This document shows, piece by piece, positions 31,367 through 61,035 of a stretch of DNA of 64,000 nucleotides. The stretch is from Eledone cirrhosa. Lineage: Eukaryota. Within the stretch, counting starts at the first letter, position 1; every line of letters begins with the position of its first letter. Made by a program: the position numbers and the translations under genes. The notes beneath the pieces are model-generated. The model ran no database searches and was not told where the DNA came from. It was given only the letters and a program-made list of their open reading frames with translations. The stretch covers positions 1-64,000 of the forward strand of contig CAXHJY010001514.1 in NCBI GenBank assembly GCA_964016885.1. The letters run 5' to 3'.

Positions 31367-31954
31367 CCTCCTCCAAACGTGAACCTAATATAACTGTAAT
31401 TTTACTTCCTGTGTTTTGTTTGTTTCATTTATTAACTATATATATAGATATATAAAAATAACAAAATAAAATGCTGAGGTTACATATATCGTATCCGATA
31501 TGTTTGATATGCTGCCGGCAGGAAAGCACCGTTGTCATTTGCTGGTTTCTCTAAAGCCTCCCTAGCAACAGTAGTTGCTTTCCTCCATCCAGATATTATA
31601 GTTTGTGAACGGATCTTCTGATGTGGTTCCATCACCAACTTCATCAGTCCCCGCACCCATTCCGTACGATGTCACTGGGTCGAGTAGCGTAAACAACGTG
31701 GCGGTATATTCCACCGCCTAACGCTGGGATCTCGCCTTTCAGGTTCCTGAGGATTACAGGCCCACCAGGTCAGTAACCTGTGCTGAGTGGCTCAATCCCA
31801 TCGTGATGTCAAAGTTGTCCGGCCACTCTCTCCTAGTCCAGAGCTCACCGTCGAAACCTATCAGTGTCTTCCTGGTAGTATGAATGATGTTAAAATTTCG
31901 TGCAAACATAAGTGCCTTGTTAAGCTCCACCGGGGAGATAGATGCATATATATA

Positions 31955-32722: not shown

Positions 32723-33246
32723 AACAATTAAGTTAAAAATGAACATCCACATATGTATACTGAAATACTAGTATGCATATGAATACACACACGTGTACAT
32801 ATGTAGATGTACCGAGTTTTTCACTGGTCACTTTACTGTGAGTGTCCAGCTATTCTGTATATAAACACACAGACATCACGCTCTATGCAAATTAGTCTGC
32901 CCACTACTAATTTTCATAGAAAAAGCATATAACGATATGTGCTTTTACGATTCTCTAGAAAGGCCGGAAGATAGGTAAATATTGCAGATGAGATGTAACA
33001 ACATCGAAACTAGTTCAATATTCCTTGTCTGGCTTTCTGGAGAATAGAGGAAAGGTGTTTCCTCAAAAACCAGTATGACTCTAAAAACCGGTTTGTCTGT
33101 GTGTTTACATACAGAATAGCTGGACACTCACAGTAAAGTGACCAGTGAAAAACTCGGTACATCTACATATGTATACTTGTGTGTATTCATATGCATACTA
33201 ATATTTCAGTATACATATTTGGATGTACGTTTTTAACTTAATTGTT
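32723..33246. repeat. Inverted repeat: ~153-bp diverged arms around a ~218-bp structured spacer
   Basis: 32723-32875 is the reverse complement of 33094-33246 with scattered mismatches. Confidence 0.9.
32978..33022 (+). ncRNA. Type I hammerhead motif with U4A core change
   Basis: aatattg-CAGATGA-gatgt(aaca)acatc-GAAA-ctag-TT-caatatt; stem I extended by ttctctagaaaggccgga / tctggctttctggagaa. Confidence 0.75.
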
Positions 33247-39014: not shown

Positions 39015-39648
39015 ATATTGTTATATTTGGGGAGGGTCATATTTGCGTAATATTGCCAGAATTAATAACAGAACACACTCACTGTTTGGTTGGTTTTCGC
39101 TTCTCGCTGTCTTTTATATATATATATCTGCGATCTAACTTACTCGGTCCTCAATGTTGCCATTGACTGACCGGCGGTCAAAAATAATACAGATACAATA
39201 TAGACAAACACATATATATATAGTTTACATAAATCTTTCGTTGCACATCTGCAACATCGTCAGTGGTGTTATATTCATTGTTCCTCCTGTTGTGTTGTAT
39301 GTCTACGCCATTTTTTTTGTTCAGTCTGTCTAGACAGACTGAACAAAAAAAATGGCGTAGACATACAACACAACAGGAGGAACAATGAATATAACACCAC
39401 TGACGATGTTGCAGATGTGCAACGAAAGATTTATGTAAACTATATATATATGTGTTTGTCTATATTGTATCTGTATTATTTTTGACCGCCGGTCAGTCAA
39501 TGGCAACATTGAGGACCGAGTAAGTTAGATCGCAGATATATATATATAAAAGACAGCGAGAAGCGAAAACCAACCAAACAGTGAGTGTGTTCTGTTATTA
39601 ATTCTGGCAATATTACGCAAATATGACCCTCCCCAAATATAACAATAT
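39015..39648. repeat. Apparently perfect 634-bp palindrome with no spacer, plus 42-bp unique tail
   Basis: Centre gtct|agac at 39331/39332; arms mirror out to atattg/caatat; TA flanks. Confidence 0.95.
39395..39442 (+). ncRNA. Hammerhead-like core with poor stem I; mirror copy on minus at ~39221-39268
   Basis: CTGACGA-t-gttgca(gatg)tgcaac-GAAA-g.ttta(tg)taaa.c-TA. Confidence 0.5.
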
Positions 39649-46660: not shown

Positions 46661-46991
46661 TTATATATATTTATATATATTTATATATATTTATATATAT
46701 ATATATATATTTATATATATTTATATATATATATATATATTTATATATATTTATATATATATATATATATTTATATATATTTATATATATATATATATAT
46801 ATATTTATAATAGGAACCAGTAAGACCCCGACAGCTGAGCTCATATATATATTTATATATATGCAAAGTTTTATTTAAATTGTTGGGTTACAACGAGTAA
46901 ATATTTATAACTGATATAAAAGCACTCAACAAGTATTTGGAGTATATTTACGATATTAAATAAATGGAAACTATATTTATAAAACCATATT

Positions 46992-47057
46992 TATTTCATT
47001 ATATATATTTCAGGGATATCATATTAAAAATATGTTATGCCTTCTTCAGACAAAATA
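46992..47057 (-). ncRNA. Type I hammerhead motif
   Basis: Minus strand: tattttgt-CTGAAGA-aggcataacatatt(ttt)aatatgatatccct-GAAA-tatata-TA-atgaaata. Confidence 0.72.
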
Positions 47058-53222: not shown

Positions 53223-53303
53223 ATTGAGTTTTGTCATATCTTACTCACTACCATGACTGAGTCTTAACCATCTACTATGTCAGGGTATGTCATGCATTAT
53301 CTT

Positions 53304-53368
53304 ATTTTATCTGATGAGGACGTACTGTTGAAGTTAGCTCAGTACCTCTGAAATATGTATAATAAAAT
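53304..53368 (+). ncRNA. Type I hammerhead motif
   Basis: attttat-CTGATGA-gga.c.gtactg(ttgaagttagct)cagtac.c.tct-GAAA-tatgta-TA-ataaaat. Confidence 0.75.
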
Positions 53369-53410
53369 ATATTTGATCACAAGAAGTTCTATTTTTGTTA
53401 ATACTTTGAA

Positions 53411-53449
<39 letters not shown>

Positions 53450-53454
<5 letters not shown>

Positions 53455-53588
53455 AACGAGTAGGGCCCCGACGGCTGAGCTCAAGCCGTTTCGACGGCTA
53501 ATTCTGGACTAAAAAAAAATGTTTTTTAGTCCAGAATTACCCGTTGAAACGGCTTGAGCTCAGCCGTCGGGGTCCTACTCGTTCCTAT
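53450..53588. repeat. Fold-back palindrome whose arms hold the 3' half of a hammerhead
   Basis: ~63-bp arms; right arm GAAA-cggct(tgagctc)agccg-TC-ggggtcc at 53546-53575. Confidence 0.8.
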
Positions 53589-53742
53589 TACCCACTCTAC
53601 TACCCTAAGTATTGAGTACTTTGGTGCGTTATGGTCCACCTCGTTCCTTACCACATTTCCTTCGTTATATATATGCCTCTATCTCTCTCTATATGTATAT
53701 ATATATATACACACACACACACACATATATTACATATTCATA

Positions 53743-60517: not shown

Positions 60518-60557
<40 letters not shown>

Positions 60558-60558
<1 letters not shown>

Positions 60559-60858
60559 AATAGATTGACATATATATATATAAAATAAACATATGAAACA
60601 ATCACAGGGAATAATTTGTAAAGAATGTAAGCACACATAGCTAGGTAGGTAACTAATTAAAGTTTAACTAGAACTTCAAATATAGATACCTTTTAAAATG
60701 ATTAATCTGATTAATCATTTTAAAAGGTATCTATATTTGAAGTTCTAGTTAAACTTTAATTAGTTACCTACCTAGCTATGTGTGCTTACATTCTTTACAA
60801 ATTATTCCCTGTGATTGTTTCATATGTTTATTTTATATATATATATGTCAATCTATTT
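60558..60858. repeat. Apparently perfect 301-bp palindrome plus ~100-bp unique tail
   Basis: Centre gattaatc-t-gattaatc at 60708; arms mirror out to aaatagattgac/gtcaatctattt. Confidence 0.95.
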
Positions 60859-61035
60859 CTAGTTGATATGAAATGCTCGGATCTAATCTTTGAGCTTATT
60901 CTACGGTGGATATGGTACATGTCTCTCAGACATGACAACCCTTAATTTTAATTTTGGATATATATATATATATATAGGAACGAGTAGGACCCCGACGGCT
61001 GAGCTCTCTCTACATCTTCCCCCCTCACGATGACA

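What the first reader, a model, noticed from the sequence alone, without database searches (positions are those of the whole stretch)
53450..53660. Recurrent 32-bp TA-adjacent tag is the antisense of a hammerhead cleavage site
Seen: taggaacgagtaggaccccgacggctgagctc, or a close variant, follows a TA tract at 46811, 53451 and 60975. Its reverse complement at 53556-53587 lies in GAAA-cggct(tgagctc)agccg-UC-ggggucc, which is stem III, a canonical GUC site and a putative stem I 3' strand. Two of the copies stop exactly at the palindromic gagctc loop, and all three loci have another HHR within ~200 bp. Inference: fixed breakpoints dictated by ribozyme structure during reverse transcription or integration.
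Basis: partly seen in the sequence, partly recalled or inferred. Interest (0 to 1): 0.7.

Follow-up and report, generated by a model that had tools for sequence, protein, structure and literature searches.

The report
Penelope retroelement tips record ribozyme cuts
The tag is the tail end of a very abundant Penelope-like jumping gene sitting in TA repeats as inverted pairs, and a small share of its copies end exactly at the predicted hammerhead ribozyme cut, which likely records the ribozyme cutting in the living animal.

Summary
The tag is real and is the antisense 3' tip of a Penelope-like retroelement (PLE) with Hydra-clade protein motifs: 3.53-kb unit, 717-aa RT plus endonuclease ORF, type I hammerhead; 10,664 tag matches in the genome. 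Positions are counted from the GUC cut. Insertions lie in (TA)n as inverted twins: one arm begins at +20 (the tag), its partner at +99 (66 of 69 adjacent partners). Most arms end at -33 to -46, likely the RNA's 5' end. The CUGANGA box is also absent: of 3,845 full copies 4 have C3-G8, about 2,722 U3-A8 and 1,110 C3.A8. Unexpected: a minority of arms end exactly at the cut (+1), about 7-fold more than at -2; both arms often do so together, and 2.5-fold more often in the U3-A8 subfamily. That is likely a fossil of self-cleavage in vivo and of two priming events on one RNA. No RNA data could test it.

The parts
53414..53452 (.). (TA)n target tract, left side
   Evidence: 19.5 copies of AT, 100%
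53450..53513 (-). Short arm of the twin (the tag): element positions +20 to -44, in inverted orientation
   Evidence: blastn to a natural unit, 93.8% over 64 nt
53514..53522 (.). Junction between the arms: A run, T, G, T run; likely slippage or untemplated additions
   Evidence: similar joints in L007, L092, L137; untemplated origin is inference
53523..53668 (+). Long arm of the twin: element positions about -44 to +99/+100; lacks the 5' core box, so it is not a complete ribozyme
53546..53573 (+). 3' half of the type I hammerhead: GAAA, stem III with GAGCTC loop, GUC (predicted cut between 53568 and 53569), stem I 3' strand
   Evidence: fold of a full copy; pair counts
53589..53668 (+). About 80-nt 'tail' between the two priming sites; in full units it is the 5' leader of the ORF (ATG at +191)
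53667..53730 (.). TA-rich and mixed microsatellite, right side
46810..46843 (-). Solo short arm (+20 to -13/-14) of the youngest U3-A8 subfamily, TA on both sides
60974..61006 (-). Solo short arm (+20 to -13), joined to a TC run (CTC fits both sides)
53303..53369 (+). Neighbouring CUGAUGA type I hammerhead of another repeat family (not part of this element)
   Evidence: family seen in 8 of 327 other loci
46992..47057 (-). Neighbouring CUGAAGA type I hammerhead of another repeat family
   Evidence: 18 of 327 other loci

Best explanation
The tag is the inverted 3' tip of a Penelope-like retroelement inserted in (TA)n, likely made when the element's endonuclease cuts both strands of a TA tract and its reverse transcriptase primes twice on one RNA, at +20 and +99 from the hammerhead cut, each cDNA likely running to the RNA's 5' end before the two are joined head to head. 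Shown: element identity, TA flanks, the two fixed TA-side ends, their near-strict pairing, the end cluster at -33 to -46, the minor end peak at +1. Inferred: cutting of both strands and two-site internal priming (shown in vitro for an anole PLE, PMC11167929); that -41/-45 is a transcription start inside loop II, so that most templates lack the core box and cannot self-cleave; that +1 ends come from longer transcripts whose complete hammerhead had cut itself; that one RNA serves both arms; end joining by short microhomology or untemplated bases. The 32-nt solo tags are rare shortened arms. Identity as a PLE tip about 0.95; +1 = self-cleavage about 0.7; -41/-45 = transcript start about 0.6.
For: Tag continues into full units with RT and endonuclease motifs. 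86 of 90 sampled tags follow TA; 66 of 69 adjacent partners end at +94 to +99; 15 of 15 fetched short-junction twins pair a long with a short arm (one short end has a point change and was called by eye). Far ends: 52 of 90 short arms and 37 of 64 long arms at -33 to -46, none of 90 between -48 and -60. A cousin family about 70% alike, with a different GC-rich loop II, stops in the same place (20 of 30; 9 at -40/-41) and keeps TTAG at -43 to -40. Head-to-tail template jumps fall at -38 to -44 in 7 loci and at +1 in one. Blunt or AT-overlap joins with both arms at -45 (12 of 30 rows). +1 peak: 920 long arms deviate after +1, by eye 50 of 100 listed are true breaks, against 470 and 13 of 100 at -2. 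In 21 of those 50 the partner also starts at +1, against about 3% expected if independent. Of 50 listed short-junction loci (of 422), 20 have both arms at +1 with 1-6 extra bases and 8 more are blunt. Double +1 twins: 60 of 7,518 in the U3-A8 subfamily, 27 of 8,547 in the mainly C3.A8 one (ratio 0.40, Fisher p 3.4e-5).
Against: No RNA 5' end was seen. Ends scatter over 14 nt, so a start site is read through trimming. Only one upstream control position (-2) was counted genome-wide with the same design, none downstream of +1. Break classes were called by eye. The marker of the 'C3.A8' group also tags some U3-A8 copies (L091, L097), the group is older (92.8% against 98.0% pairwise) so more of its twins fail an exact pattern, and it still has +1 twins. 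Blunt CCCCGGGG joins can also be read as -1/-1 with a CG overlap. The hammerhead fold is the minimum-energy fold for one of three full copies and is no more stable than shuffles (z 0.21); two-sided covariation is not beyond shuffles (3 pairs, 146 of 500). In the anole PLE no RNA reads ended at the cut and ribozyme mutants inserted normally (PMC11167929). No Pfam or PDB hit supports the domains.
Confidence: 0.6

Rival explanations
1. Same element and priming sites, but the far ends are reverse transcriptase stalls or fold-backs at ribozyme helices: +1 at the foot of stem III, -33 to -46 after stem II; no cut RNA and no start site are needed.
For: Stem III begins 2 nt from +1. Some joints use stem III or palindrome microhomology (L074, L096, L110, L094). 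Uncut RNA is the main template in vitro (PMC11167929). Stalling can also provoke template switching.
Against: Ends at -2, the first paired base, are about 7-fold rarer than at +1. Independent stalls do not explain both arms ending at +1 together (21 of 50) or the subfamily difference. No helix lies ahead of the enzyme at -41 once stem II's 3' strand is copied, and the stop is kept in a cousin with a different loop. The GAGCTC loop is not favoured.
Confidence: 0.25
2. The -41/-45 boundary is an RNA end made by processing (3' splice site at the AG at -41/-40, or a nuclease stopped at stem II), not a transcription start.
For: A pyrimidine run then AG precedes -39. The Drosophila virilis Penelope intron ends inside its hammerhead (PMC4209133).
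Against: A spliced template should add a constant upstream exon between the arms; the inserts seen are short and all different. Many arms include the AG and the bases before it, to -44/-45.
Confidence: 0.1
3. The 220-bp twin is a non-autonomous hairpin element (MITE, SINE or retrozyme) that multiplies as a unit.
For: Copies are short, young and very many; the twin folds into a perfect hairpin (z -26.7).
Against: Almost every twin has its own junction, so each was formed anew; the arms are pieces of an ORF-bearing unit; twins lack the core box; no fixed terminal repeats.
Confidence: 0.04

Closest known systems
Hydra clade of C-terminal-endonuclease PLEs (Craig et al. 2021, PMC8557442; includes Hydra-1_Obim of Octopus bimaculoides)
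   Same: Single ORF, RT then endonuclease; RWR/RWK, DKT, CxCx5C linker, CxxC and CxH around E and N; (TA)n targets; hammerhead in the repeat; inverted 5'-truncated copies.
   Different: Core is U3-A8 or C3.A8, whereas the Hydra hammerheads in File S2 have CUGANGA; the Hydra-1_oBim hammerhead listed there has other stems. Unit 3.5 kb against generally under 3 kb; tail about 80 nt against 30-40. No tree with named Hydra proteins was made.
Poseidon PLE of Anolis carolinensis (Frangieh et al. 2024, PMC11167929)
   Same: Two internal priming sites downstream of the hammerhead that give the tail; AT-rich target; both strands extended; mostly uncut template.
   Different: Different clade. There, priming is not homologous to the target; here both sites end in TAT next to (TA)n. 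There, no reads at the cut; here a genomic end peak at the cut. Strict long-short pairing is not reported in the text read.
U3-A8 minimal hammerheads of Schistosoma mansoni Cercyon PLEs (Cervera and De la Pena 2014, PMC4209133)
   Same: Same core covariation, in the PLE repeat; pairs of motifs on opposite strands.
   Different: Those have almost no stem III and are thought to act as dimers; this one has a 5-6 bp stem III and a long stem II.
L1 twin priming (recalled, from no call)
   Same: Two primers from the two target strands, inverted product, microhomology at the joint.
   Different: In L1 the second primer anneals upstream and the two pieces do not overlap; here both arms copy the same stretch from two fixed sites.

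Membership tests
Penelope-like elements (endonuclease-bearing) | Single ORF with RT and C-terminal GIY-YIG endonuclease | tested here: met
   717-aa ORF with YRDD at 347 and YIGLT at 605, kept in homologs (YRDD 116 of 117). By motif only: no Pfam or PDB hit; the fold job never returned.
Penelope-like elements (endonuclease-bearing) | Tandem or partial tandem units forming pseudo-LTRs, inverted 5'-truncated copies | tested here: met
   Arrays of 3,531-3,546 bp units; inverted copy plus full unit in L149
Penelope-like elements (endonuclease-bearing) | [quoted passage not shown] | tested here: met
   +20 against +99 ends, 66 of 69 partners; about 80 nt, longer than the 30-40 in PMC8557442
Hydra clade | DKT in place of DKG; RWK motif | tested here: met
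   DKT at 116; RWR at 36 (RWK 82, RWR 30 of 117 aligned)
Hydra clade | [quoted passage not shown] | tested here: met
   Positions 571, 669, 697; 113-116 of 117 aligned
Hydra clade | Insertion into (TA)n | tested here: met
   86 of 90 tags (the search pattern itself required TATA); long ends also abut TA
Hydra clade | Canonical hammerhead (CUGANGA core) | tested here: not met
   4 of 3,845 copies; the rest U3-A8, C3.A8 or U3.G8. Hence filed as a variant, not a plain member
Hydra clade | Groups with named Hydra proteins in an RT tree | not tested
   No named Hydra protein came from any call; homologs were unnamed
Type I hammerhead ribozyme | Three helices round the core, 3-8 pair, GAAA, NUH | tested here: met
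   Met for U3-A8 copies (89.3% of 252 cells paired); the C3.A8 subfamily breaks the 3-8 pair; twins and tags hold only the 3' half
Type I hammerhead ribozyme | Self-cleavage at NUH | not testable with these tools
   Indirect only: end peak at +1
Non-LTR retrozyme | Short non-coding tandem units each with a complete hammerhead | tested here: not met
   Twins are inverted and lack the core box; tandem units carry the ORF

The most novel reading that the evidence does not exclude
This genome holds a fossil record of the Penelope cycle: one RNP primes both strands of a cut (TA)n at two fixed sites on a single RNA, and hundreds of insertions were copied from RNA that its U3-A8 hammerhead had already cut, at a rate that follows the state of the 3-8 core pair. 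That would be direct in vivo evidence that a PLE hammerhead cleaves and that cut RNA retrotransposes.
Probability: 0.5. Interest if true: 0.7.

Novelty: new variant of a known kind. Interest (0 to 1): 0.5.

Why it matters
[quoted passage not shown] The origin of PLE inverted and tailed insertions is also open. Here tens of thousands of young arms give countable end positions: two priming sites used in near-strict pairs, one main upstream boundary, and a peak at the cut that differs between natural core variants. The same tally can be run on any PLE-rich genome, and the intact units with U3-A8 and C3.A8 cores give a ready in vitro comparison. The element class, tail, TA targeting and U3-A8 core are each already described.

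Tried and rejected
Rfam found no hammerhead at the finding. My first search demanded CUGANGA and returned 51 matches, 5 of them real full copies; I first took the core as canonical, which overturned: those are rare single-copy changes. Pfam and PDB sequence searches gave nothing significant. The structure job had not finished at the last look, so no fold search was run. RNA test failed: the only RNA run offered held 0.06 of the words and laid 0 contigs; all runs were contigs. A cap signature (extra C after -45) was looked for and not shown: 3 of 21 joints start with C and each has another reading. Script end calls of -47 and -20 are over-extensions through microhomology, and -118/-124 are subfamily divergence from the reference; coordinates printed and re-based were offset and are replaced. 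Whether arms share one RNA could not be told from subfamily markers (41 same, 4 different). Earlier findings: none returned. Naiad was considered from the C-terminal motif and dropped: the endonuclease is C-terminal. Literature: 8 searches showed no report of genomic PLE ends at the hammerhead cut; the library lacks most subscription papers. Read: PMC11167929 parts 1-2 of 4, supplements searched with no hit; PMC4209133 parts 1-2 of 4; PMC8557442 passages, section 11 and supplement part 2 of 57; the bioRxiv retrozyme paper part 1 of 5 and passages (its supplements are closed). Other papers: search listings only. Figures and unread supplements of these papers may show such ends.

Full report
Observation. 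The 32-nt tag occurs four times in the window within 3 mismatches and never in 100 shuffles. At 53450-53668 it is one arm of an inverted pair between two TA tracts; the other arm holds the same sequence in sense and runs about 80 nt further. The solo copies at 46811 and 60975 stop at GAGCTC. Other hammerheads lie near two of the three loci, not three, and belong to other families. Below, +1 is the first base after the GUC cut.

What it belongs to. The window is contig C1541 of a 3.0-Gb animal genome; an octopus is my guess from size and repeat make-up, from no call. The tag pattern has 10,664 exact matches. Longer copies lead through a 1.2-kb 3' region into an ORF. Tandem arrays of 3,531-3,546-bp units carry an open frame of 784 codons, 717 aa from the ATG at +191. 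The protein has RWR, DKT, YRDD, CxCx5C, YIGLT, CxxC and CxH, nearly all kept in 116 aligned homologs out of 2,216 found among 8,000 scored. These are the marks of the Hydra clade of Penelope-like elements in PMC8557442. Pfam and PDB gave no hit, and no structure model came back, so the domain call rests on motifs.

The ribozyme. Full copies have the stem I complement upstream, and one intact-ORF copy folds as a three-way hammerhead at minimum energy; two other copies do not, and none beats shuffles. The core is not CUGANGA. Of 3,845 copies, 13 have G8 (4 C3-G8), 1,110 have C3.A8, and 2,722 by subtraction have U3-A8. A sister subfamily and a cousin family about 70% alike have U3-A8 with U at the free position 7 (13 of 20 loci by script, 16 by eye, the others chance matches), so U3-A8 is likely ancestral and C3.A8 derived. 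U3-A8 is a known PLE core variant (PMC4209133). Across 12 copies 89.3% of 252 cells pair, but two-sided changes are not beyond shuffles.

TA-side ends. I fetched the first 89 of the 100 listed tag places and found 90 arms. 86 follow TA. 69 have an adjacent inverted partner; 66 of these end at +94 to +99, one at +64, one at +36, and one at +20 (L083, the same twin seen from its long arm); 19 have no partner within 260 nt and 2 a distant match. So there are two fixed ends, +20 and +99, both ending in TAT, used in near-strict pairs. This matches the PLE tail (PMC8557442) and its explanation by two internal priming sites (PMC11167929), where both target strands were cut and extended and the protein was predicted to be a dimer.

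Far ends. The main cluster is -33 to -46: 52 of 90 short arms, 37 of 64 long arms, with none of 90 between -48 and -60. Joins with both arms at -45 are common among arms that reach it. The cousin family stops at the same place, peaking at -40/-41 (20 of 30), and keeps TTAG there though the loop differs; it resembles an initiator element (recalled). Among 30 rows with the leader-ORF junction, 7 loci show head-to-tail jumps at -38 to -44. I read this as run-off at the RNA's 5' end, inside loop II, which would leave most templates without the core box. No RNA reads were available to test it.

The cut-site peak. 920 long arms deviate directly after +1; by eye 50 of the 100 listed are breaks, 47 point changes and 3 unclear. 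At -2 the figures are 470 and 13 of 100, about 460 against 61. In 21 of the 50 the partner also starts at +1, against about 3% if the arms were independent (the denominator there is approximate). Of 422 loci with very short junctions, the 50 listed give 20 with both arms at +1 and 1-6 extra bases, 1 unclear, 8 blunt (also readable as -1/-1), 7 with one arm at +1 and the other trimmed, 7 ambiguous through stem III microhomology and 7 others. Double +1 twins number 60 per 7,518 long arms in the U3-A8 subfamily and 27 per 8,547 in the mainly C3.A8 one (p 3.4e-5). Age, a mixed marker and protein differences could add to that gap, and no downstream control position was counted. L207 jumps at +1 and L209 starts at +1.

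Mechanism. Best reading: the RNP cuts both strands of (TA)n, primes at +20 on one and +99 on the other, copies one RNA to its 5' end (a start at -41/-45 in most cases, the ribozyme cut in a few percent, random truncation in long copies from the downstream repeat), and the two cDNA ends are joined. The rival is stalling at helices; it fits microhomology joints but not the paired +1 ends or the rarity of -2. A splice or nuclease end at -40 and an independent hairpin element are weaker.

Verdict. A Hydra-like PLE with a U3-A8 hammerhead; class, tail, target and core variant are known. The end statistics bear on an open question, the in vivo role of PLE hammerheads; eight literature searches showed no such tally. 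Interest 0.5.

Noticed in passing
window 3300-6620: Inverted array of 558-bp units, four on the minus strand and two on the plus, each with a CUGAUGA hammerhead, between TA tracts and with a longer tail on one side: retrozyme-like or PLE-derived.
   Followed up: partly
window 60555-60945: Another TA-flanked inverted twin with a long and a short arm, of a different family (7 of 327 other loci); no hammerhead found by the descriptor.
   Followed up: partly
window 39180-39480: Perfect inverted pair with a CUGACGA...GAAA motif in each arm.
   Followed up: no
window 6841-6879 and 31335: Further CUGANGA...GAAA motifs beside TA tracts; 6841 passes the descriptor.
   Followed up: no
window 32967-33038: Weak Rfam HH9 hammerhead match (33.8 bits, gathering 52) with a degenerate core.
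   Followed up: no
window 31757-31948: Remnant of a related RT (41.7% over 72 aa, E 3e-8), upstream of the 31335 motif on the opposite strand.
   Followed up: no
L215-L221 (for example G000:C1:437196500-437216300): Multi-unit tandem arrays of near-identical intact 3.5-kb units; would fit rolling copying of a circular unit-length RNA as proposed in PMC4209133.
   Followed up: partly
G000, 1,110 copies: A subfamily with a C3.A8 mismatch in the core amplified widely, so an intact 3-8 pair is not needed for spread.
   Followed up: partly
L186, L187, L189, L191, L211, L213, L214: Template jumps from about -40 to points 160-920 nt into the element, L187 twice to the same point.
   Followed up: partly
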